From the NCBI GenBank assembly GCA_951406725.2, contig OX597814.1:135842001-135906000 (forward strand): a DNA stretch of 64,000 bases. Reading direction: 5' to 3'. Below, piece after piece: positions 14,896 through 64,000 of the stretch. The position numbers and the translations under genes were made by a program. The number at the start of each line of letters is the position of its first letter. Position 1 is the stretch's first letter. A model generated the notes under the pieces. The model did no database searches and was not told the DNA's origin. It worked only from the letters and a program-made list of their open reading frames with translations. This stretch comes from Octopus vulgaris. Its lineage: Eukaryota.

Positions 14896-15250
14896 GCAAA
14901 GTAGTTAGTTCTAAAATATCTATAAGAAATGTAAGTCGTAACAATATTGAAAATTAAAGTTTGTTGCCACTTTGCTTGTTGCAAAATCAGCAACTGAATG
15001 TTGCTTACTTTTCTATATATTGTGAGCTAGGATGAATGACTGTCATGTCAAGCAGACATGTGGCCGGTACTGGCGAAGGATAATACCCTGAAACCAGACT
15101 GGTATACTTGTGTTATCACTTGCAATATATTGGACACAAGTTGTGTTATTAACTAGCTGCAGGTGATGTCCTCCTGGGGGTTAAAAAAATGGTAGTAACA
15201 TAGTTCCATATCGAACAACCATGTTGAAGTGGCAACAAACATTACTTTCA
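14896..15250 (+). mobile_element. Short hammerhead-bearing element (Penelope pLTR/retrozyme-like) with 5' inverted segment
   Basis: Homologous to 50831-51210 in opposite orientation; 14896-14972 is inverted relative to the rest. Confidence 0.65.
15066..15108 (+). ncRNA. Minimal type-I hammerhead ribozyme motif (core variant CUGGCGA)
   Basis: ggta-CTGGCGA-aggataataccct-GAA-ACCAGaCTGGT-A-tact: stems I, II, III pair; GUA site; one core substitution. Confidence 0.7.
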
Positions 15251-18764: not shown

Positions 18765-19817
18765 TAGATAGATTAGATAGATTAGATAGATAGATAGATA
18801 TCACCAGTAGTTTATATATCCAAAAAAGAAGCACACTCTAAAGCAATAGAGCAGTAAGCACTTTATAGGTGTGAAACCAATGGTCACTCTATGACTGGCC
18901 ATAACATTTAACTTTCTAATATATATATATATATATATGATCCCTTACTTCCAGTCAATAGATAATACGTATATTTTTCCAGATAAATTCCATATGTTAG
19001 TCATGATCCTTGTTTGGGTGGCCCTTTGTAGTGACCAACTAATAGTTATGTAATGATGAGGTATTAGGGTGATTTTATATAATAGTTATCTTTTTTTATA
19101 TTTAAACTGATTTGTATATCCCTCTTATTTAACATGGTTCTAACACCCCTATTAAAACTTTTTAAAATTAAAAGATTTAAATTCTATTTTATACAACATA
19201 ATACTACACAGGCTTTTGCTATACCTTGACTATAAACTTTTTCCCTCTGAGCCCTTAAGGTTTTCCTAGATCCCAGCATAGCATTCTAATTTTCATAGTG
19301 TATGCCTCTTTAACTGAAAATAATGACAAGAGTTAATGTCATGATACCCTACCTCTTTTATGGGCTTTTACTGCTATCTAGTTAACTCCTAAAGTGTATT
19401 GCTTTTTGTGGTGAGGGGTATCTATGGCATTAAGAAATTAAGGAATAGGAGAAACATCCAGTAATATTTATTTATGACCAGTAGCCAGCTATGAGCTGTC
19501 AACTCACAATCTTCTTTGTTCTCAGTAGTATGTTAGGCTTAGATCTTTTGTTGATGATAAGAAGGTAGATTAAGAAAATTAGAAATGAATTATAATCCTG
19601 TGACCCTCTCTGTGTTCTATGCCACACCAAAATTGTAGTTCTTCTCTTGGAGATTATTCTTGCTGCAATAGTGACAGTATGAAATTCTTTCATCCTCTAG
19701 CTCTGATAAAATGTTTGAGAATCATTATATTAATATATCTTATCTGAACGGTCGTATTGCACTAATATTTGGCATCCTGTTAGTTATTTTGATTATACAT
19801 ATATATATATATATATC

Positions 19818-19963
19818 TTCAGTAAATCACAAATCTAAAAGAGAAGTGCACTCTAAGTTATAGAGCAGTAGAGCGCTTGCTAGTGTGTTTTAGGGTCTGA
19901 AGGAATGCTGTAAAGCTAAATGCTTTATGGACATGAAACCCAGGGTAACCCCACAGACAGGCC

Positions 19964-20156: not shown

Positions 20157-20239
20157 AATAAAATAGAACATATGCATATATATAAACATATATGTACGTA
20201 CCTACCTCTACATGTACATATACACGCATATATGTGTAC

Positions 20240-20736
20240 AGGACACCAAAAAGACGTCGAACACATAGAGAGACGAAAAACATAGACACAAACCAAGGAA
20301 CAAGACAAGCAAAAAAAGAGATACAGGACAATAAGCACAACGAAAAATCCCCTTCTTCAGTCGCTAAGGTTTCATCTACTAAACATTTCGAAGGATAAAA
20401 GCGAGACGTATACTTCGAAGAAAACTTCCTTCCTGCGAAAAGCAAATCAATTAAAATTCTGAGATCTTTTCGCAGAGGGGTAAAAAAAGCAAGACGGTAA
20501 CGACAGTACAAACATATAAACAGTAAAAAATATATATATAAACAGTGGAAAAATAAATATATAACAGTGAGAGACAGGACAAGGAGAACAAGATAAGAAG
20601 GGCTGTTAACGCCAGACGAAAAAAGTATTGCAAACGCTGGATTATAGTGGACGACGAGAGAGAAAGAATATCGACCAGTAGCCTTAGAAGGCGGGCGAGA
20701 AAAGACAGGATAGCAGTTACGACGGAAGTATCATCA
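20240..20736. mobile_element. CpG-rich non-coding repeat fragment, possibly Penelope pLTR-related
   Basis: Composition and purine-rich style resemble 53826-54050; lies between duplicated microsatellites. Confidence 0.4.
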
Positions 20737-20802
20737 TCTGTCTGTCTGCCTGCCTGTCTGTCTGTCTGCCTGTCTACCTCCCTCCCTCCCTCCCTACCTA
20801 CC

Positions 20803-20833
<31 letters not shown>

Positions 20834-20837
<4 letters not shown>

Positions 20838-22396
20838 CTGCAGAGATGCTCAAAATATCTGGTAGTGTCGGCTATAGCCTAGTCACCCGTATAGTTAACA
20901 AGGTGATACACGAAGGAGTCATTCCCAATGACTGGTGTAGCAGCATAATAGTCAGCTGCTACAAAGGTAAAGGTGGCACCCTAGATACAAATAACTACAG
21001 GGGTATCAAGCTGCTGGATCAGGTAATGAAGGTTATGGAGAGGGTTATAGCCCAACTAATTAGAGAGAGAGTTAGCCTAGATCAGATGCAGTTTGGGTTC
21101 GTGCCAGGGAAAAGTACTACTGATGCTATTTTCATGGTAAGACAGCTGCAGGAGAAATACCTAGCCAAAGACAAGCCCCTATACCTGGCTTTTGTTGATA
21201 TGGAGAAAGCCTTCGACAGGGTCTCCCGATCCCTTATCTGGTGGTCAATGAGGAAACTAGGGATAGATGAATGGTTAGTGAGAGCTGTACAAGCCATGTA
21301 CAGAGACACTGCTAGTAAGGTGAGGGTTGGCATCGAGTACAGTGAAGAATTCAGGGTAGAGGTTGGGGTCCACCAAGGTTCAGTCCTCAGTCCCCTCCTA
21401 TTTATCATAGTCCTCCAGGCAATAACGGAGGAATTCAAGACAGGATGCCCCTGGGAGCTCCTCTATGCTGATGACCTTGCTCTAATTGCTGAGTCTCTAT
21501 CAGAACTAGAGGAGAAGTTTCAGGTATGGAAGCAAGGTTTAGAATCGAAGGGCCTTAGAATCAACCTAGCCAAAACCAAAGTCCTAATAAGTAGGAAGGT
21601 AGACCAATCACAAACGCCTTCAGGTAGATGGCCCTGCTGAATCTGTAGAAAAGGTGCATCAAGTGTAAGCTATGGACACATAAGAGGTGCAGAAATGTCA
21701 AAGGAAGGCTAACTAGGAAGATGGTTATAGTATGTGGCAGATGCTCAGGAACAATAAACACTGAAAATGCTGAGACCAACTTCCGTCACTTTCCAGGGAG
21801 AAAAACTAGAAGTAGTTGATAGTTTCTGTTACCTAGGTGACCAAGTCAGTAGCGAGGGCGGGTGTGCTGAAAGTGTAACTGCTAGAGTAAGAATAGCCTG
21901 GGCAAAGTTTAGAGAGCTCTTACCCCTGCTGGTGACAAAAGGCCTCTCGCTCAAAGTAAAAGGCAGACTGTATGATGCATGTGTATGTACAGCCATGCTA
22001 CATGGTAGTGAAACTTGGGCTGTGACTGCTGAGGATTTGCGTAAGCTCGCAAGAAATGAAGCTAGTATGCTCCGATGGATGTGTAACGTCAGTGTTCATA
22101 ATCGACAGAGTGTAAGTACCTTGAGAGAAAAGTTGAACCTAAGAAGCATCAGTTGTTGTGTGCAAGAGAGACGTTTGCGCTGGTATGGTCATGTGGCAAG
22201 AATGGCTGAAGATACTTGTGTGCGAAAGTGCCACACCCTGGCAGTTGAGGGGACCTGTGGAAGAGGTAGACCCAGGAAAACCTGGGTCGAGGTGGTGAAG
22301 CATGACCTTCGAACTTTAGGTCTCACCAAGGAAATGACCAGAGACCGAGACCTTTGGAAGTATGCTGTGCGTGAGAAAACCCGGCAAGACCAGTGA
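20834..22396 (+). pseudogene. RTE reverse transcriptase ORF, disrupted (stop at 21638-21640 plus small deletions)
   Basis: ORFs 20846-21640 and 21767-22396 are consecutive parts of one RT. Confidence 0.9.
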
Positions 22397-22480
22397 GAAC
22401 AGTCAAAATCAAACCAAATCAATTCATATATCAGAAAGCAGAACCAAATTGAGGTCGATCAACATCAGGGCCCCCGTGCA

Positions 22481-22975
22481 GGTTCGTGTTCGTTGCCAGC
22501 CTCGCCTGGCCCCCGTGCCGGTGACACGTAAAAGCACCATCCGGTCATGGCCGTTTGCCAGCTCTGTCTGTCCCCCGTGCCGGTGACACGTAAAAGCACC
22601 ATCTGTTCGTGGCCGTTTGCCAGCCCTGTCTGGCCCCTGTGTCGGTGGCATGTAAAAGCACCATCCGTTTGTGTCCGTTGCCAGCCTTGCCTGGCCCCCG
22701 TGCTGGTGACACGTAAAAGCACCATCCGTTCGTGGCCGTTTGCCAGCTCTGTCTGTCCCCCGTGCCGGTGACACGTAAAAGCACCATCCGTTCGTGGCCG
22801 TTTGCCAGCCCTGTCTGGTCCCTGTGTCAGTGGCATGTAAAAGCACCATCCGTTTGTGTCCGTTGCCAGCCTCGCCTGTCCCCCCCCGTGCTGGTGACAT
22901 GTAAAAGCACCATCCGTTCGTGGCCGTTTGCCAGCTCTGTCTGGCACCTGTGCGGGTGGCACGTAAAAAGCACCC
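22481..22975 (+). repeat. ~62-bp tandem array (about 8 units, 185-bp A-B-C higher-order period) in LINE 3' UTR
   Basis: aaaagcacc recurs at about 22530, 22592, 22654, 22715, 22777, 22839, 22903, 22966. Confidence 0.95.
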
Positions 22976-35479: not shown

Positions 35480-36033
35480 GAAAATCAAATAAAAAAAAAA
35501 TCAAATCAAATCAAATCAAACCAAATCAAAATAGATGAACATCAATGGAATTTGTATCCTTGTGGTACCAGTGCCGGTGGCACATAAGAAAACCATCCGA
35601 ATGGGACTGTAGCCAGTACCGCATCGACTGGCCTCCGTGCTGTGGGCACGTAACAAACACCATCCGATTGTGGCCGTTCGCCAGCCTCGTCTGGCACCTG
35701 TGTCGGTGGCACATAAGAAAACACCGAAAACACCATCTGAGCGTGGCCGTCTGCCAGCCTCGTCTGGCACCTGTGTCGGTGGCACATAAAAAACACCATC
35801 CGAGCGTGGCCATCTGCCAGCCTTGTCTGGCACCTGTGTCGGTGGCACATAAAATCACCCACTACACTCTCGGAGTGGTTGGCGTTAGGAAGGGCATCCA
35901 GCTGTAGAAACACTGCCAGATCTGACTGGCCTGGTGCAGCCTTCGGGCTTGCCAGACCCCAGTTGAACCGTCCAACCCATGCTAGCATGGAAAGCGGACG
36001 TTAAACGATGATGATGATGATGATGATGATGAT
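35480..36033 (+). mobile_element. RTE 3'-UTR element with 4-5 units of the ~62-bp repeat
   Basis: aaacaccatccg...gccagcctcgtctggcacctgtgtcggtggcacata repeats, RTE 3' end, (GAT)n. Confidence 0.9.
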
Positions 36034-39752: not shown

Positions 39753-41042
39753 CGAGGGACGTTCAATAAGTAATGCCCCTGACCCACTTGCAGTTGTTTG
39801 ATCTTGCTGAAATTTTGCCTGTGCAATTATTTATATCTCTATAGATTAAGTGGCAAATTACAGCTCTGAACTAATTGTGGTTTCTGATTTACAGGTATTT
39901 GAACTGAGTCAAGTGGGAAATGGAGCCTGTTGAGTGTCGAGCAGTGATCCGGTTTTTGTATTTGAAAGGACGCACACCACGGGAGACTTTTGATGAAATG
40001 AAAGTAACTTATGGTGATGATGCCCCATCATATGAACTTGTAAAACGCTGGCATCGTGAATTCAAACACGGTCGGAACTCTGTGGAAACAGCTCCCAGAT
40101 CTGGTCGCCCCTTCTGCCATTGATAAGGCATCTGTCCGTCAAGTTGAGGCTGCCATTTTGGAAGATCGACGCATAACTATTCGCCAAATAGCCCATGAGG
40201 TCAAGATTAGCACCGGGTCTGTGGAAACTATCATTCATGACCATTTGCATATGCAAAAGGTGTCTGCCAGATGGATTCCCAGGTTGCTCACACCTTTCCA
40301 GAAGCAAGAACGCGTCGATTGCTTGAGGATGAATTTGGAGATGTGCCAAGAAGATGAGTCAAAATTTTTCAAAAGGCTGATTACACAGGATGAAACCTGG
40401 GTCCATCATTATGATCCAGAGACCAAAGCCCAGTCAATGCAGTGGAAGCACCATGACTCACCTCCTCCAAAGAAGGCAAGGGTACAGCCCTCCGCTGGCA
40501 AGGTCATGCTCACAGTCTTCTGGGACCAGGACGGAGTAATGATGACAGATTTCCTGGCAAAGGGTGCCGCAATTACAGGAGTCTATTATGCTTCACTTTT
40601 GAGGAAATTAAGAGAAGCTATCAAAATCAAGAGGCGGGGCAAGATCAGCAAAGTCATCCTCCTCCTGCAGGACAACGCTCCGATCCACAACTCGTGTGTC
40701 GCCAGATCAGAAGCACAGGTGTGCGGCTATGAACTCATCCCCCATTCCCTTTACTCTCCTGACCTTGCACCTTCTGATGTTCACCTCTTCCCAGCCATGA
40801 AGTTGTTTTTGAAAAGAAAGCGTTTCCCAGATGATGCAGCCTTGATTTCTGAAGTCACGTCTGGTTGGAGGACCAAGCTGGGGTCTTCTACAAAAACGGT
40901 CTTCAGAGCTGCATCAAACAATGGGAGAAATGCGTAACTCTGGGTGGTTCCTATGTAGAAAAAGACTAATAACTGTGCCAAGTTTCGTTGCTCTACTGCT
41001 ATGGGAAGTGGGTCAGGGGCATTACTTATTGAACGCCCCTCG
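39753..41042 (+). mobile_element. Full-length mariner transposon (1290 bp)
   Basis: 37-bp TIRs cgaggg(a/g)cgttcaataagtaatgcccctgacccactt with 1 mismatch; TA duplication at 39751-52 and 41043-44; inserted in a SINE tail. Confidence 0.97.
39920..40969 (+). pseudogene. mariner DD34D transposase with two 1-bp frameshifts (~40110, ~40860)
   Basis: WIPRLL, ITQDETW, LQDNAP-34aa-YSPDLAPSD; C-terminus WEKCVTLGGSYVEKD* in a shifted frame. Confidence 0.93.
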
Positions 41043-48052: not shown

Positions 48053-49716
48053 CCCTACTGCTTATGTGGCAGGACTATATTTTTTTCCAGATGTTTGTAC
48101 ATTGACTCTGCAAGTATTCCAGTCAATAATTTCCACATAAGTGACAAACAGGATATCGGCCTGTAATTGTCTACTGTATTGCCTTTTTTGATGTTTTTCA
48201 GGCACAGCACTATCCTACCCAATGTCAACCACTCTGGTGTTACTTGATCAGCATTTGACAAGATGTTTGAGTTGTGCAGCTATTCATACATGACATTCAC
48301 CAAATCTTTTGATCCAGTAGTCTTGAACTCCATCTGATCCCAAGGCTTTCCAGTTGTCCATTTTTTTGCTGATTTCCTTCACTTCCCTAACTGTAATGAC
48401 TAGTTCTGCCTGTTTTGGACAGAGTACTGTTTGTTTCAGTTCTTGCAACCATTCAGCATCCTTCTTGTGTTGTCTTTGCTCCAGATGTCACTCCAAAACC
48501 TTTGACTTTCAATGTTATCTGGTATTAACTTTTCATCTCTACACTCTCCATTTATTTCTTTATAGAATCTTTTCTGATCTACCCTGAATAATCTATTCTG
48601 CTGGTATCCTTTCATTCTTTGGTTGTATCTTACCATCTTTGCTTTCTTTGCAATGAGGCACTGTTTCAGTTCCTCCATTACCACTTTCAGGCCCTTTCTT
48701 TCAATAATATACTTCCTTTTCAGTGCCCTGTATTTTTGTTTGCTTTTAATCTCCCTTTCTCTTTTCGGTCTAACACAGAGATTTCCTTCGAGAACATGTC
48801 TAATCCTGTCTGGATTCTTCTTTTCCACCATGGATCTTTTCTTTTGTCACTCCCATTATGTTTCTTTTTCTTGACATCAACACCCACGTTTTCTGCTACA
48901 ACAATATCTGTTGCCTTGATCAAATTATTTGTCTCTGTGATGTTTGTTCTGATGTATTTCAGAATTTCATTGATAGTTTTTGTTTCTTGATTCAGTTTCC
49001 ATTGATCAACCTTTTTAAAGTAGCAAATAATGTCGCTATCGTTCTCTTGTAGTCTTACCTTTATTCTGTCGTAGATTGTCTTTTGTTCATCTGTCTTGTT
49101 GCCATTAGTTTTATTGTCTTCTTTTGGATCACCTATATGTCTCTCATCAAGTAAACTACCACTGCTCCTTTCCTGTGCTATGGGATTACTCTCATTAGTA
49201 AGAACTGTATTTTCATTGTTATCTCTGCTGCTATTTTCTATAACCCGTCTTTTGATAGCTTTGAGCTCTACTTCTGTGAACCAACAATTTTTCCCTATTA
49301 CTCTAGCTTGATCACATAGTCTCTGTTCCATGAGTTGAAACAATATCTTTTCTCTCCAATGATTATACATACGTTGTCGGTAACCCCTAATTTGAGCACC
49401 ATTTTCATCTACTGGGCTGCTCAGGTAGTAACACTCTATGACCACAGCATTAATTTGCTTGCTTCATCTACGCCATATGTGGTGGTCCCTTTCTGGATAT
49501 CGACAGGCTGAAGCCAGACCAGAATCTCTTACCCTACCGGGTGTAACACTATCACCATCATTTGCTTCAGTTTCATTACCACCGTTATTCACAATATTTT
49601 GTCTTTTTCATTGTCACTCATGTGAGGTAGCGATTATCAGGTTGCGAAATTACCAGTATTTTTATTGTGACACCATCACTAGATGGTGTCACTAGAAACG
49701 CCACCAGTTTCCTTTC
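48053..49716 (-). mobile_element. R4/Dong-type LINE 5' portion, decayed, broken off inside RT
   Basis: VIECYYLS..GYRQRMYNHW..EQRLCDQARVI; PWWKRRI; QQNRLF..DQKRFY; [29 protein letters not shown]; 5' end abuts (TAA)n. Confidence 0.9.
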
Positions 49717-50288
49717 ATTATTATTATTATCATCATCACTGATATCACTGATATCATTGTTTTTATGTGTAGTAGCAGCAGTGGTTGCAGCAATGGCAAC
49801 AGTAGCAGGGGTTGGGGTAGTGGTAAGGGTGGTAGTTGGGCCTCAGATTCCTGTGCTACCATAATAGTAGTAGTTGACAGTTTTGCAAAAATATTTCTAA
49901 CTGAAAATATACATGCATGGCATTGTGATTTTATGCACCCAACAAAGTATTATTGTTAAGCTGAAACTGTTGCTAATGTAAAAACAAATGGAATGGTGAA
50001 ACTGTTACGTGATGCAGCATGGAATTTTGTCAATAAACAGGTCTTGGTCTCAAAGCGACAAAAATATTTTGGCAAATTAAATTTAAATGTTGAAGTGAAT
50101 CTAACGGTTTTTGTGCCTTTTTAAATGGCTCATAAACACCTTCCATGCCGCAATTCTTTTTGTTTCAGCACACAATCTCAGATCAGGTCACTTGTTATAC
50201 AAGTACATCTCCATAACTGTTTTTTTGTTTTCTGAAAAAGCAATGTTTTGGACTTAGACACTTTTGCATAATAGCAATGATATATATG

Positions 50289-50818
50289 TATTAATTCCTT
50301 TCTGGTTTTTAATTGCTAGCGAACCACTCATACTATAATGTGTTTAATATATCTTAATATATTAATATATCATTGTAATATCTTCTTGTATTGATAACAT
50401 ACACTCTAACTGTTTGAATTTGGTGCTGCCTATCAACAGTTTCCTTTTCTCATTTACTATTATGAAGCAAACTATCTCTTTAGCCCTGAGTAGTTGGTAG
50501 ATGCTTCTGAAGAGAAACAAGACCTTATTGGTTAAATTTTGAAATCATGTGATAAATCCTTGTCCAGCTATTTCTTTTCATGAGTCTATCTCACAAGGGA
50601 AAGATCATTTTAGTTTGCTGTGCCCACTTCCCATAAATGTAATGAGGTTAGTACTATTTGTAGCTTTCAGAGTTAATTTTTAGCAATCGCTGGTGCTATT
50701 TTGCATACTTTATTTATTAATTCCTTTTTGGTTTTTAATTACTAGCGAGTCACTCATGCTATAATGTAATATATCTTAACATATTAATATACCATTGTAA
50801 TATCTTCTTGTATTGATT
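50289..50818 (+). mobile_element. Tandem-monomer (426-bp period) hammerhead element, retrozyme/pLTR-like
   Basis: ~105-bp direct repeats starting at 50289 and 50715; hammerhead in between; (TA)n flanks. Confidence 0.65.
50503..50558 (+). ncRNA. Type-I hammerhead ribozyme motif
   Basis: gctt-CTGAAGA-gaaacaagacc(ttatt)ggttaaatttt-GAA-ATCAtgTGAT-A-aatc; core intact, stems partly eroded. Confidence 0.55.
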
Positions 50819-50830
50819 ATATATATATAT

Positions 50831-51210
50831 AAGTAATATTCGTAGCCACTTTAACATGACTGTCCATTCGAGTGGACTCTACTACAGTTTTTTAACCCCA
50901 AGAGGACATCTCCTCTAGCTGGTTAATGATGCACAGCCGCATCCGATAAAATTGTGAGCAGGGGAGTGAACCCCTACCAGCTCTTAGCGACGGGATCAGT
51001 AGACCAGTGCTAGTTTCGGGCTATTTCTACCACTCCTCAGTATAGGATACCTCGTCTGCTAGAGATGATAGCAGCTCACTTCTGCACACAATATATATAT
51101 TTCAAGCGAACATACAGTCACTGATTTGCAACATGCAAAAATACTAGTTCTAAAATCTCTCTAAGAGATCAATGCAGTAGTTGTACTAACAAGTAATATT
51201 TGTAGTCACT
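50831..51210 (-). mobile_element. Hammerhead element, ~360-bp monomer with ~20-bp terminal redundancy; same family as 14896-15250
   Basis: aagtaatattcgtagccact (50831) / aagtaatatttgtagtcact (51191); shares gatgtcctc.tgggg.ttaaaaaa and agttctaaaat blocks with the 15 kb copy. Confidence 0.65.
50998..51043 (-). ncRNA. Minimal type-I hammerhead ribozyme motif
   Basis: Minus strand: ata-CTGAGGA-gtggtagaaatagccc-GAA-ACTAGcaCTGGT-C-tac; intact core, GUC site. Confidence 0.7.
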
Positions 51211-51220
51211 GCTTCGATCA

Positions 51221-51279
51221 ATCCCTAGGGATATCTGAAGAAGGAATTTTTATATTCTGAAATATATCAGACTATGGAT
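51221..51279 (+). ncRNA. Type-I hammerhead ribozyme motif
   Basis: atccctag..tat-CTGAAGA-a-ggaat(ttttat)attct-GAA-ATATAT-C-aga-ctatggat; palindromic stem III; distal stem I atccctag/ctatggat. Confidence 0.6.
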
Positions 51280-51570
51280 GATTAAATTACACCAGTTATT
51301 ATAGTGCATTATTGTACCAATCAAAACACATTATTACTATATATCATCATCATCATCGTTTAACGTCCGCTTTCCATTATTATTATTGATATAAGGAAAT
51401 TAATATCGAAACTCCTCATAAAGATATACCCGTGTGAAAATAGTTATTGTATTAAATATATAAATAAATAAATATAAATATATATCAAAATATATGTAAA
51501 TGCGTATAAGTATAAATATAATGTATAGATATATTTGATAACTTAAAAGTTTTGAATTAATTATTTAAAG

Positions 51571-51661
51571 CATCTTACGATCTTTCACAGAAGAGTTGTC
51601 CCTATAATGAAATCCTATATTGATAAGCATTTATAGACAATGCTTCAGCTCTTCAGAGATA
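51571..51661 (-). ncRNA. Type-I hammerhead ribozyme motif with extended stem II
   Basis: Minus strand: tatct-CTGAAGA-gctgaagcattgtctata...tatagggacaactcttctgt-GAAA-GATCGT-A-agatg. Confidence 0.65.
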
Positions 51662-51793
51662 TAAAATATGAATATTGTATAACATATCGAATGATAGGTT
51701 TTTTTTTAAAGTTTGAAGTAAAACTGTAAAATGGTGTTTGTTTGAAATATAAATTCAAAATTCAAAATTACTACTTTTGATGAGAGTCTTGTT

Positions 51794-51847
<54 letters not shown>

Positions 51848-51879
51848 CATACAAAGAAAGAATATAATTTAAATTAAGT

Positions 51880-51962
51880 TTCACTACAGCTGTTTCAGAT
51901 GTGGATTTTATTGATGAATAAACTGATTACACTGTAAAAAAACCCTGTTTTCTTCAGGTGAA
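51880..51962 (-). ncRNA. Type-I hammerhead ribozyme motif with extended stem II
   Basis: Minus strand: ttcac-CTGAAGA-(~54 nt; gggtttt/aaaatcc)-GAA-ACAGCTGT-A-gtgaa; perfect stem I, palindromic stem III. Confidence 0.75.
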
Positions 51963-52263
51963 TTAAAATGAAACTGCATACTGACTTGCATGTGTATATA
52001 ATTTCATATACATCTATATTTATATGGATGTGTATGTTGAATTGTTCTTATGCATATATATGTAAGTGTTGAGACATGTCCATGTATGTGTGAGCTTCTG
52101 TTTACAGTGTATACATGACTATACTAATTGTGCCACTAACTTGGTGTCCTTGTTTTTAAAATACCTTGATCCAAATAAATCCTACAATCAATTAATATAT
52201 ATAGATATACACATAATTAATATATATACTCACACGCATGCACATGCATATACATACTCATAA

Positions 52264-52684: not shown

Positions 52685-53825
52685 GTATGCATATATGTGT
52701 ACAGGTGTGAGTGTGAGTGTGTGTATGTGTGTGTGTATGTGTGTGTGTATGGAGAGAGAGAGCGGAGTGTGAGAGAGCTGGAGTACAGAGTGAATCTCTA
52801 AACAAACAGGCAAACAGATCCTTATAACAACACACACACACACACACATACTTATAGAACAGTGTTTGACCTTTTATTTTAAAACAATACTGTCATACTG
52901 TGCTGATTTTAGACACAATGTCAGAACAAATAACAAAATGATAAAAACAAAACTGCCACACCAAGCCTATCTATTGACTACCAGGAAAACTAGATGACTG
53001 TATTGCATGCTAATATACGAAATGGTTATGATATATCTGAACAATGTAAGACGTGTTTGTTGGACAGAATAAAGAAGATAGTTTAGGCTTGCGTTTCTTA
53101 AGTTCTTATAATGAATCAATAGAAAGTACTGAACTATTTATGTCAAGATTAAGTCGATGGTAACAGCAAAATGTTCAAGTGGATAATGTAATAGATTAGA
53201 TGGAACATCAGATTATAGGTCATATGTAGATATCTCCTGTATTATGTCTCTGAGTAAGTAAGTTACTTAATGGCTGTCAGAAATATGTCCTAGATGTTTT
53301 AAGGGTTTAATTTTCTTGCAAGCAGGACATCATCACAAACAGGAATATTATATATGAAAGAAACAAGTCTGAGAAATAACTTAACTTCACCATAGACACA
53401 CACACACACACACACATATATACATACAAGCCCTAACAAGAGACAGTGGTAAATGTTAAAACAAAGGTTTTATACATAGAGTATGATAGGTGTGTGAAAC
53501 ACACCCAAATACATATGTGCATATGTTAAGCAAATGCACAAACACACAAATAAGGATTTAATGAACTGAATTTTTTGTAGGTGAAAACATGGCTGTGTGG
53601 TTAAGAAAGCTTCATTAAGTTTTATTAAATATATAGGCGTAGGAGTGGCTGTAGCTTGTGGTAAGTAGCTTGCTTACAAACCACATGGTTCCAGATCCAG
53701 TCCTATGGCATGGCACCTTGGGCAAGTGTCTTCTACTATAGCCTCGGGCCGACCAAAGCCTTGTGAGAGGATTTGGTAGACAGAAACTGAAAGAAGCCCA
53801 TCGTATATATGTATATATATATATA

Positions 53826-54050
53826 AAGTTAATCCAAACATGAAAACACAAAGAGAAAGCACAACAACACCACGAGGACGTGGAACAAGTATAGTATTAT
53901 TGGACGCTCAGGAAAGAAGGAAAGAAGGAGGGTTTAACATTTTGAGTGGAGCTCTTCGTCAGAAACATAGTAAAAGGAAAGATCCAAAGAAGGGAAGACG
54001 GAGAAAAAAAATCGCCAACGGTACACACGCGGTCACATTTTGATTTTGAA
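53826..54050 (-). mobile_element. Short hammerhead-bearing element inserted in the (TA)n of a family A SINE
   Basis: (TA)n on both sides; contains the decayed hammerhead at 53932-53966. Confidence 0.6.
53932..53966 (-). ncRNA. Decayed minimal hammerhead motif
   Basis: Minus strand gttt-CTGACGA-a-gagc(tcc)actc-AAAATGT-T-aaac; three transitions at inferred CpG sites away from gctc-GAAACGT. Confidence 0.55.
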
Positions 54051-61848: not shown

Positions 61849-62821
61849 GTAACAGTAATAATAATCCTTTCTATTAAAGGCACAAGGTCTGAAATTTTGG
61901 TGGGAGGAGACTAGTTGATTTCATCAACCCCAGTGCTCAACTGGTACTTATTTTGTGGACTTACAAAACCCTAAAACTTTCTATGAAAATCTGACTTTTC
62001 TTTGCTTCCTCCTTGAATATTCAAATATAAATGTAAACATATACTTTTTATTGTAAAAACACACCTGTTCTAACTGGACATACAAACATCTCTAGAAAAG
62101 TCAACTTCAACCTCCACAATATTACCTTACATGAAATATACAAACACTTTTTATTGCAATAACACAAACACACATGGAAAAAAAAATGAAAAAAAAAAAA
62201 TGATGATGCTAAGATTCTCTCTGGTTGAACACAACTTCTCTATTCACAAACAATACAGGACAGCCCTTCCTTAATTTTTCTTAAGCCTAATAGTAGTAAA
62301 CATCTGAACTTTTTTTGACCGATAGAACCCCACCTAAAAAAAAAAAAAAAAAAATATCACTGATGGTGATGGTGATGATGATAATAATGATAGTAATAGT
62401 GCTGATAATCTATCTATCTATCTACACACACACTCAAAGAGTTCAACCAACACAAACCTCACCTCCGCTCTATTGTTAACCAAATATGAAAGTATTATTT
62501 GACAGGCAAGAACTCTGGCTTTGAAGACAGTCAGCCAGCCAACCACGTGATGGTGATAATGATAAAAAAACAAAAATAACAATAAGATACTGCTGTGACT
62601 ACACATAAAACAATATCATTGATGATGATGGTGGTGATGGTGATGGTGATGATGATAATGATGATGGTAATGATGATAGTGATAATAATGGTGATGATAA
62701 TAACAATAATAAGCCGACTACGGCTGCTATAATGGTACGATTATAATTGTAACGGCAATGATGGCCGTCTCCCCACGAGCCAATCAAAGCTAAAAAATGA
62801 TAACATTATCGTAGCACCAAA

Positions 62822-63404
62822 ATGTTTTTGGAAACTAAAAGGAAAACTAAATCAGTATACCAAATCGCTTGTCCTATGGTTAATCTGGAAGCGCGTCCCC
62901 CAGGGAAGAGCCAACCTGGGATCGAAAAGTCATCAACTGGCACAAACTCTTCTCCGAATACGGACATGGATGGTCACTTGAACGGGAAATCCCCCAACTC
63001 GAGCCCTCCAAGTTCACCACCACAACCACCACAGAAAGAAAAATGTAAGCGGAACAAATGGACCCAAGAAGAGTATAAAGAAGTAATATACGCTTATTAC
63101 TATGCATTAGGTAGGCCATCTCAAGAGAGACACACTGCAAACTCTTACAGTATATGGAGAACATGGAATCAAGACAGTAGGCCCTATTTGGACGAGAACA
63201 AATTAGCAAATGTGAGGAGGGATATCCTTAGAAATAACAGACTCACAGACAGTGAAATAAGCACGATCAAGCACGCAATGGAAAATGACATAAATATAAG
63301 ACACAAAGGAAATGAAGAATCAGATGAACAGTATAGCCCGCCACGAGGCTTAATTGAAAGACTGCCATCTGACCAAAGTATGCAAAGGCCTGAAGATACA
63401 AGGC
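62822..63404 (+). CDS. R4/Dong ORF N-terminal segment
   Basis: RNKWTQEEYKEVIYAYYYA...YSIWR..LDENKLANVRRDILRNNRLTDSEI, homologous to the 48720-49445 ORF. Confidence 0.75.
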
Positions 63405-64000
63405 CTGTTCACATCCAATGCCAAAAAATTCTACAGAGAAATAGGGAAGGAGAAAGTAACCGTTAAAGACCCCCCTCCCATGGAAGAAGTTCAAAACTTT
63501 TGGAAAAGGATTTGGAGTGACAAGAAGACGTACAACATAAATGCAGACTGGATTATACAAACTGAAGGATCCTACCAAAATTTACAACAAGCATGGGAAG
63601 ACATCACAATAGCAGACCTAAGAAAGGCACTCACGAAGGCCCATAATTGGAAATCCCCCGGTAAAGATAGGGTGCCGAATTTCTGGCTCGCATCGCTCCC
63701 ATGCGCACACGGTAAGCTAGTTCAGCTGCTCAATGGAATTATGAGAGACCCAAAGAAAACACCTGAATGGTTAGCAAGTGGCATTACTTACCTACTCCCA
63801 AAGAATAACGAAACCAACCTTCCAAAAAACTATCGGCCTATAACCTGTCTATCCACCACGTATAAAATCCTAACATCTATCCTGGCGGAGAAAACATATG
63901 CATTCATGGAGAAGAACGATATTTTCCCCATTGAACAAAAAGGGTGCCGCCGAGGCTCTTACGGATGCAAAGATAAACTGCTAATCAACCGTATGATCCT
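63405..64000 (+). CDS. R4/Dong RT N-terminal part, open to the window end, different frame from the upstream segment
   Basis: Manual translation LFTSNAKKFYREI..FWKRIW..NWKSPGKDRVPNFWL..PEWLASGITYLLPK..NYRPITCLSTTYKILTSI..EQKGCRRGSYGCKDKLLIN; no stops. Confidence 0.85.
   Translation, partial: MFTSNAKKFYREIGKEKVTVKDPPPMEEVQNFWKRIWSDKKTYNINADWIIQTEGSYQNLQQAWEDITIADLRKALTKAHNWKSPGKDRVPNFWLASLPCAHGKLVQLLNGIMRDPKKTPEWLASGITYLLPKNNETNLPKNYRPITCLSTTYKILTSILAEKTYAFMEKNDIFPIEQKGCRRGSYGCKDKLLINRMI

What the first reader, a model, noticed from the sequence alone, without database searches (positions are those of the whole stretch)
50289..51962. Nest of five hammerhead ribozymes from apparently different short elements within 1.5 kb, strung between (TA)n tracts
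Seen: five CUGANGA...GAAA...UH motifs with pairing stems at 50503(+), 50998(-), 51221(+), 51571(-) and 51880(-). Their host sequences look mutually unrelated and are separated or flanked by TA-rich microsatellite; none has an ORF. Known: minimal type-I hammerheads with short palindromic stem III mark Penelope-like element pLTRs and animal non-LTR retrozymes, and cleave as dimers. Inferred: several non-autonomous self-cleaving retroelement families repeatedly target (TA)n and pile up here, possibly as uncatalogued cephalopod retrozyme/pLTR families.
Basis: partly seen in the sequence, partly recalled or inferred. Interest (0 to 1): 0.8.

Follow-up and report, generated by a model that had tools for sequence, protein, structure and literature searches.

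The report
Hammerhead-bearing Penelope-type repeats piled at (TA)n
Five worn copies of a self-cutting RNA motif (hammerhead ribozyme) lie within 1.5 kb of this octopus-like genome, at least four of them inside different multi-copy repeats that likely derive from Penelope-like retrotransposons drawn to the same TA-rich spot: a real but mostly ordinary case of a known kind, with cutting untested.

Summary
Five CUGANGA..GAAA..UH cores lie at 50507(+), 51040(-), 51235(+), 51656(-) and 51957(-), against a mean of 0.16 (maximum 2) in 2000 shuffles. None is a perfect hammerhead as it stands, and Rfam finds none. Public contigs laid on sites 1-4 show that all four hosts are multi-copy repeats. At 11 of 12 displayed variant sites in the helices, the family-majority letter restores or strengthens a pair; none breaks one or touches the catalytic core. 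So these are decayed copies of real type I hammerheads.

Hosts 1 and 2 are ORF-less units of 426 and 360 bp with partial terminal repeats. Family 2 also occurs head-to-tail and with inverted ends, as Penelope-like elements (PLEs) and retrozymes do. A (TA)n-targeting, hammerhead-bearing octopus PLE (Hydra-1_Obim) is already published.

Verdict: new members of a known kind. Cleavage, circular RNA and the autonomous partner are untested.

The parts
50285..50817 (+). Element 1: ORF-less A-B-A' unit, 426-bp period, terminal repeat of about 115 bp (50285-50401 / 50711-50823, 88% identical); (TA)3 at the left edge, (TA)7 at the right
   Evidence: multi-copy in 3 of 3 DNA-like runs (5-25 contigs per displayed site); the unit folds no better than shuffles (z -1.3)
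50503..50558 (+). HHR1: C3 at 50507, GAAA 50541-50544, helix III of 4 bp + 2-nt loop, predicted cut after 50554
   Evidence: the family-majority letter at 50557 completes a 4-bp stem I
50818..50831 (.). (TA)7 tract on which the 3' ends of element 1 (+) and element 2 (-) both end, tail to tail
50831..51212 (-). Element 2: 360-bp ORF-less unit plus a 20-bp repeat of its 3' end (50831-50850 / 51191-51210); highly structured RNA with the hammerhead at the tip of a long rod
   Evidence: joints 'goes back 360' in 3 of 3 DNA-like runs and opposite-strand joints; fold z -3.5, 0 of 100 shuffles as good; homolog at 14951-15248
50996..51046 (-). HHR2: C3 at 51040, C17 at 51002; family form has a 6-bp stem I, a 4-bp stem II with one bulge and a 4-5-bp stem III (Hydra-PLE-like build)
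   Evidence: 6 majority letters restore or strengthen pairs; core-open fold within 0.1 kcal/mol of the MFE for the family form
51213..51337 (+). Element 3: stub of a very abundant repeat, cut at its 5' side where it meets element 2 head to head; ends at (TA)3
   Evidence: 44-85 contigs per displayed site in the DNA-like runs; loose ends before 51214
51221..51280 (+). HHR3 (weakest): C3 at 51235, unpaired A before a 5-bp stem II, palindromic 4-nt helix III, C17 at 51268; proximal stem I not formed
   Evidence: the majority letter at 51258 gives the G10.1-C11.1 pair
51343..51377 (.). Fragment of a very abundant SINE-like repeat (at least 6 other copies in the window); not part of the hammerhead elements
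   Evidence: SINE identity recalled, not from a call
51453..51501 (.). Degenerate TA-rich tract facing the 3' end of element 4
51540..51797 (-). Element 4: piece of an abundant repeat, 3' end about 30-40 nt after the predicted cut; left boundary approximate (depth bins)
51571..51661 (-). HHR4: C3 at 51656, A17 at 51576, 5-bp stem I, unusually long stem II (13 Watson-Crick pairs plus a closing G-U in the family form), palindromic helix III lacking one base in this copy
   Evidence: 3 majority letters repair stem II; a one-base insertion after 51582 that completes the palindrome has 42%, 31%, 4% and 58% of depth in the four runs
51800..51851 (.). (TA)n array between element 4 and the 3' end of element 5
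51852..51990 (-). Element 5 with HHR5 (51880-51962; C3 at 51957, perfect 5-bp stem I, perfect 8-nt palindromic helix III, long imperfect stem II); 3' end about 35 nt after the cut, on (TA)n; right boundary approximate

Best explanation
These are five decayed type I hammerhead motifs in unrelated repeats (four shown to be multi-copy) that are likely 3' ends or short non-autonomous derivatives of Penelope-like retrotransposons, likely inserted one after another into the same TA-rich target. Shown: the motifs, multi-copy hosts 1-4, restoration of helices by family-majority letters, the 360-bp head-to-tail unit and inverted ends in family 2, the A-B-A' form of element 1, and TA-rich DNA at the 3' end of every host. 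Inferred: a PLE protein (RT + GIY-YIG endonuclease) supplied in trans nicks TA-rich DNA and primes reverse transcription near the RNA's 3' end. More-than-unit copying of a tandem or circular RNA gives the partial repeats of elements 1 and 2, and early termination gives the stubs 3-5. The hammerheads would cut tandem precursor RNAs: HHR1 and HHR2 as monomers, HHR3-5 as dimers through their palindromic helix III. Each insertion leaves TA-rich flanks that remain targets, so families pile up. The copies here are old and likely inactive.
For: Motif excess over shuffles. 11 of 12 displayed variant sites in helices gain pairing, 0 lose it, and 0 of 40 displayed rows fall in core positions. Majority letters lower the folding energy of element 2 by 11 kcal/mol; 0-2 of 100 controls with the same substitution types at random places do as well. 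Tandem and opposite-strand joints occur in three runs. A second family-2 copy at 14951-15248 has 22-nt inverted ends, the PLE arrangement described in PMC8557442 (passages). HHR1 and HHR2 share the build of the tabulated Hydra-clade hammerheads, which sit near 3' ends of PLEs listed with (TA)n preference, including Hydra-1_Obim. 8 of 9 hammerhead-like motifs in the window have (TA)4 within 300 nt downstream, against 20% of random positions. A PLE protein nicks AT-rich DNA and primes RT in vitro (PMC11167929).
Against: No PLE RT or GIY-YIG ORF was found next to any motif, and 16 of the 77 listed ORFs gave no PLE-type Pfam hit. No sequence link to a named autonomous PLE was found. Rfam is silent. 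No copy meets all three helices as it stands. Site 3's proximal stem I is not repaired by the displayed variants; 87 of 127 variant rows were hidden. Site 5's family is untested. TA tracts lie as close upstream as downstream of the motifs, so the test shows association, not direction, and the five clustered sites are not independent. Element 1's unit shows no structure gain from majority letters (75-86 of 100 controls as good). In the one PLE tested, hammerhead cleavage was not needed for insertion in vitro.
Confidence: 0.8

Rival explanations
1. All five are simply 3' (pLTR) stubs of 5'-truncated autonomous PLEs, and no independent non-autonomous (retrozyme) family is involved.
For: Hosts 3-5 end 30-70 nt after the cut and are cut at the 5' side; family 3 continues 5' with other sequence elsewhere (loose ends). 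Truncation is the usual fate of PLE copies (10.64898/2026.07.22.740005).
Against: Family 2 joins head to tail at a fixed 360-bp period in three runs and has no ORF. Element 1 has a 426-bp period with the hammerhead outside the repeated part.
Confidence: 0.25
2. Elements 1 and 2 are non-LTR retrozymes that are transcribed, self-cleave and circularize into 426- and 360-nt circular RNAs, which are the templates for insertion. This is a stronger version of the main reading.
For: Unit sizes are near the 350-390 bp of mussel retrozymes (PMC7229834). The structured 360-nt unit has a monomer-competent hammerhead, and the genomic copies are more than unit length.
Against: No long tandem array here (1.05 and 1.27 units). 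No evidence of circles or cleavage-site ends. Element 1 is not more structured than shuffles.
Confidence: 0.35
3. One or two motifs (most likely HHR3) are chance look-alikes in AT-rich repeats, and the cluster reflects the general repeat density of this genome rather than targeting.
For: The loose descriptor finds 18 motifs in the whole window. HHR3 lacks a proximal stem I. Similar patterns match bacterial and phage coding DNA by chance. The window was picked from very many.
Against: 5 within 1451 nt has P 0.0002-0.008 for 9-18 uniformly placed motifs. HHR3 has the unpaired base before stem II and, in its family, the G10.1-C11.1 pair, both hallmarks of PLE hammerheads.
Confidence: 0.12

Closest known systems
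Hydra-clade Penelope-like elements and their canonical type I hammerheads, incl. Hydra-1_Obim of Octopus bimaculoides (Craig et al. 2021, PMC8557442; saw passages, section 11 and supplement tables S1/S2)
   Same: Hammerhead near the 3' end; (TA)n insertion preference; helix III of about 4 bp with a 1-2-nt loop (HHR1, HHR2). HHR2's core and the start of stem II match those listed for Hydra-1_aMil and Penelope-2_NV.
   Different: No RT/GIY-YIG ORF here. The sequences differ from Hydra-1_Obim (compared by eye; one search found no meaningful match of six short motifs). Elements 1 and 2 are short units with 170-265 nt after the cut.
Animal non-LTR retrozymes (Cervera and de la Pena 2020, PMC7229834, read parts 2-3 of 6; Li et al. 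2026 bioRxiv 10.64898/2026.07.22.740005, read parts 1-3 of 5)
   Same: ORF-less 150-450-bp units with one type I hammerhead, low GC, head-to-tail joins (family 2), structured RNA; solo monomers are common.
   Different: Here only 1.05-1.27 units; circular RNA, cleavage and TSDs not shown. Neither paper covers octopus in the parts read.
Minimal hammerheads in the pLTRs of metazoan PLEs (Cervera and de la Pena 2014, PMC4209133; read parts 1-2 of 4)
   Same: 4-5-bp helix I, palindromic helix III, unpaired base before helix II and G10.1-C11.1 (HHR3), many dispersed single copies, nearby copies on opposite strands.
   Different: HHR4 (13 pairs plus a closing G-U, 63-nt insert) and HHR5 (54-nt insert) have helix II longer than the 7-8 bp described. 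HHR1 and HHR2 are not minimal.

Membership tests
Type I hammerhead ribozyme | Core CUGANGA, GAAA and UH in type I order | tested here: met
   5 of 5 sites; no displayed family variant in core positions of sites 1-4
Type I hammerhead ribozyme | Helices I, II and III all able to pair | tested here: inconclusive
   0 of 5 as they stand. Met in the family form of HHR1, 2 and 4. HHR3 stem I unresolved; HHR5 stem II imperfect and family not seen.
Type I hammerhead ribozyme | Match to Rfam hammerhead models | tested here: not met
   the models fit decayed, minimal or long-stem variants poorly (my inference)
Type I hammerhead ribozyme | Self-cleavage after H17 | not testable with these tools
   needs an in vitro assay; contigs cannot show RNA ends
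Autonomous Penelope-like element | ORF with PLE RT and GIY-YIG endonuclease | tested here: not met
   longest frame 26-65 codons per host; none among 16 ORFs scanned. So no host is filed as an autonomous PLE.
PLE-derived sequence (pLTR stub or non-autonomous) | Partial tandem (pLTR-like) and inverted 5'-truncated arrangements | tested here: met
   element 1 A-B-A'; element 2 20-bp repeat at 360 and homolog with inverted ends; tandem and opposite-strand joints. Not shown for hosts 3-5.
PLE-derived sequence (pLTR stub or non-autonomous) | Insertion into (TA)n | tested here: inconclusive
   every host's 3' end faces TA-rich DNA; 8 of 9 motifs within 300 nt vs 20% background, but equally near upstream and only one window
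PLE-derived sequence (pLTR stub or non-autonomous) | Sequence homology to the pLTR of a named autonomous PLE | tested here: inconclusive
   six short motifs searched in one supplement, no meaningful match; Repbase/Dfam and the genome are not available
Non-LTR retrozyme | ORF-less 150-450-bp unit with one type I hammerhead, occurring head to tail | tested here: met
   family 2: 360 bp, joints in 3 of 3 DNA-like runs. Family 1: 426-bp period in this copy only. Not shown for 3-5.
Non-LTR retrozyme | Two or more complete consecutive units each with a hammerhead | tested here: inconclusive
   not met at this locus; joints show only 31-77 nt across the junction elsewhere
Non-LTR retrozyme | Abundant linear and circular unit-length RNA | not testable with these tools
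   only contigs of one run guessed to be RNA were laid

The most novel reading that the evidence does not exclude
Family 2 is the first cephalopod retrozyme: a 360-nt, self-cleaving, circularizing non-autonomous element derived from a Hydra-clade PLE and aimed at (TA)n by that PLE's endonuclease. Families 4 and 5 carry a high-copy dimer-type hammerhead variant whose helix II is extended to 13 or more base pairs, which short-loop descriptors would miss.
Probability: 0.35. Interest if true: 0.5.

Novelty: new member of a known kind. Interest (0 to 1): 0.3.

Why it matters
If true, octopus genomes hold several abundant hammerhead-bearing PLE-derived families. The recent O. vulgaris repeat annotation does not mention ribozymes (0 occurrences of the word in its main text). 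Family 2 would extend the proposed PLE origin of retrozymes, argued so far mainly from Xenopus, to a mollusc and point to the Hydra clade as donor. The long-helix-II hammerheads would show that current descriptors undercount these motifs. It does not change the known mechanism, and the locus itself is most likely an inert insertion hot spot.

Tried and rejected
No whole genome is held, so genome-wide consensi and copy numbers could not be built. Rfam scans found no hammerhead.

Pattern scans for relatives gave only chance matches: site 5 in viral contigs (2 loci, inside a phage gene) and metagenomes (5 loci, no similarity beyond the pattern); site 3 in viral contigs (0 and 0) and prokaryote genomes (22 loci; none extends beyond the pattern). 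A short motif from the Hydra-1_Obim hammerhead matches at 18873, but the flanks are not a hammerhead and 3 matches are within chance. Aligning HHR1, HHR4, HHR5 and the 19897 motif showed no shared family.

Expression: no RNA holder was listed. One run guessed to be RNA had contigs on elements 2-4 and almost none on element 1, which is no evidence either way. Depth is not a copy number and was used only, with contig counts, to show that the hosts are multi-copy.

The scan's earlier findings held nothing by sequence, by place or by the long word list.

Rejected: a single composite element (the hosts differ in depth and in presence between runs); Naiad origin (Naiads lack canonical hammerheads); origin from the RTE-like RT at 20714-22396 or the mariner at 40044-40937 (far away, unrelated).

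Full report
Setting. The window is AT-rich animal DNA packed with microsatellites, SINE-like repeats, RTE-like RT ORFs and mariner remnants. I read it as octopus from recalled repeat sequences; no call names the host, and no whole genome is held.

The observation. All five cores are present, with C3 at 50507(+), 51040(-), 51235(+), 51656(-) and 51957(-). A loose descriptor finds 5 in 50201-52050 against a mean of 0.16 and a maximum of 2 in 2000 dinucleotide shuffles. Three stricter descriptors find 4 of 5 (0 of 2000 shuffles reach 4). One demanding all three helices finds none. The descriptors were written after seeing the motifs, and the loose one finds 18 in the whole window. Five within 1451 nt has P of 0.0002 to 0.008 if 9 to 18 motifs were placed evenly, before allowing for the choice of this window. 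Rfam finds no hammerhead. So the motifs exceed chance but are imperfect.

Are they decayed real ribozymes? Contigs of four public runs were laid on 50270-51795 at 80% likeness (site 5 lies outside). Hosts 1-4 are each covered by many different contigs, so they are repeats; depth is not a copy number. 40 of 127 variant rows were shown. Twelve fall in the helix registers I scored. Eleven create or strengthen a pair: 50557 in HHR1; 50996, 51012, 51029, 51043, 51044 and 51048 in HHR2; 51258 in HHR3; 51641, 51642 and 51647 in HHR4. One is neutral (51610), none breaks a pair, and none of the 40 lies in a core position. A one-base insertion after 51582 completes HHR4's palindromic helix III; it has 42%, 31%, 4% and 58% of depth in the four runs. 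Stems I and III are fixed by the core; the bulged register of HHR2's stem II was my choice. With majority letters, the penalty for holding the core open falls from 1.9 to 0.1 kcal/mol for HHR2 and from 4.3 to 0.6 for HHR4. Element 2's folding energy drops by 11 kcal/mol, with 0-2 of 100 matched random controls as good. Element 4 gives 2 of 100; element 1 shows no such gain. Against: HHR3's proximal stem I pairs at only two of its first four positions and is not repaired by the rows shown. HHR5 has a perfect 5-bp stem I and 8-nt palindromic helix III but an imperfect long stem II, and its family was not examined.

Anatomy of the hosts. Element 1 (50285-50817, +) is A-B-A' with an 88% identical terminal repeat at a 426-bp period; the hammerhead is in B. 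Element 2 (51212 to 50831, -) is a 360-bp unit plus a 20-bp repeat of its 3' end. Contigs in three runs join the family head to tail at exactly 360 and also on opposite strands. A second copy at 14951-15248 (76% identical over the best local match) keeps the hammerhead with paired changes in stems I and III and has 22-nt inverted ends. The 360-nt RNA is strongly structured (z -3.5); element 1's is not (z -1.3). Elements 3-5 end 30-70 nt after the predicted cut and look cut at the 5' side. No host has a frame above 65 codons, and the hosts do not align with each other. On the hammerhead strand, each 3' end faces TA-rich DNA: elements 1 and 2 end on the same (TA)7, element 3 on (TA)3, element 4 on a degenerate tract and element 5 on (TA)22. 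Four more hammerhead-like motifs lie elsewhere in the window (15070, 19897, 20360, 53962). Eight of all 9 have (TA)4 within 300 nt downstream, against 20% of random positions, but TA is about as near upstream.

How it likely works. [quoted passage not shown] More-than-unit copying of a tandem or circular RNA would give elements 1 and 2, and early stops would give stubs 3-5. The TA flanks remain targets, so families accumulate. The hammerheads would cut tandem precursors, HHR1 and HHR2 as monomers and HHR3-5 as dimers. In that same paper cleavage needed the protein and was not required for insertion, so the ribozyme's role is open. All of this paragraph is inference.

What is known. Minimal hammerheads in PLE repeats, dispersed as single copies and near each other on opposite strands, were described in 2014 (PMC4209133, parts 1-2 of 4). 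Non-LTR retrozymes include 350-390-bp mussel units (PMC7229834, parts 2-3 of 6), and a 2026 preprint derives retrozymes from PLE pLTRs, with sequence evidence from Xenopus (10.64898/2026.07.22.740005, parts 1-3 of 5; its supplements are closed). Craig et al. (PMC8557442; passages, section 11, supplement) describe partial tandems, inverted truncated copies and (TA)n targeting. They list Hydra-1_Obim, an octopus PLE with (TA)n preference and a 3' hammerhead. The Hydra-clade hammerheads have a roughly 4-bp helix III with a 1-2-nt loop, as HHR1 and HHR2 do. An O. vulgaris annotation counts 31 recently active PLE families and does not use the word ribozyme (PMC13282606, passages; its supplement was listed, not read). 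Searches for octopus with retrozyme or hammerhead (listings only, apart from the papers named) turned up no description of octopus retrozymes. Repbase and Dfam could not be checked, so these families may already have entries there.

Verdict. It is a pile-up of old PLE-type hammerhead repeats at a TA-rich site: new members of a known kind. The most interesting pieces are the 360-bp retrozyme-like family with a Hydra-type hammerhead and the long helix II of HHR4.

Noticed in passing
window 14951-15248: Second copy of family 2, hammerhead on + at 15070 (one core change), with 22-nt inverted terminal arms and a TA/TG tract at its 3' end.
   Followed up: yes
window 19888-19956 (+): Hammerhead-like motif with a long well-paired stem II, palindromic helix III and one core change; followed by (TATC)n and TA repeats.
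   Followed up: partly
window 20200-20720 (-), core at 20360: About 500-bp repeat with a half-decayed hammerhead core, ending on (TA)n, next to an RTE-like RT remnant.
   Followed up: no
window 53820-54050 (-), core at 53962: About 230-bp element with TA repeats on both sides and a minimal hammerhead whose G12 reads A in this copy.
   Followed up: partly
window 51378-51445: Repeat abundant in runs X1 and X2 but nearly absent in X9 (depth about 9000 vs 20), so probably lineage-restricted; element 4 is also several-fold lower in X9.
   Followed up: no
window 51205-51212: At the head-to-head junction of elements 2 and 3, eight bases are the reverse complement of the sequence that precedes element 3 in other copies (loose end): a micro-inversion or template switch.
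   Followed up: no
window 48436-49463 (-), 62804-63466 (+): Broken ORFs without Pfam match that resemble N-terminal parts of Dong/R4-type non-LTR elements (recalled, not tested).
   Followed up: partly
window 22420-22968 and 35633-35854: 62-63-bp tandem units inside SINE-like repeats.
   Followed up: no
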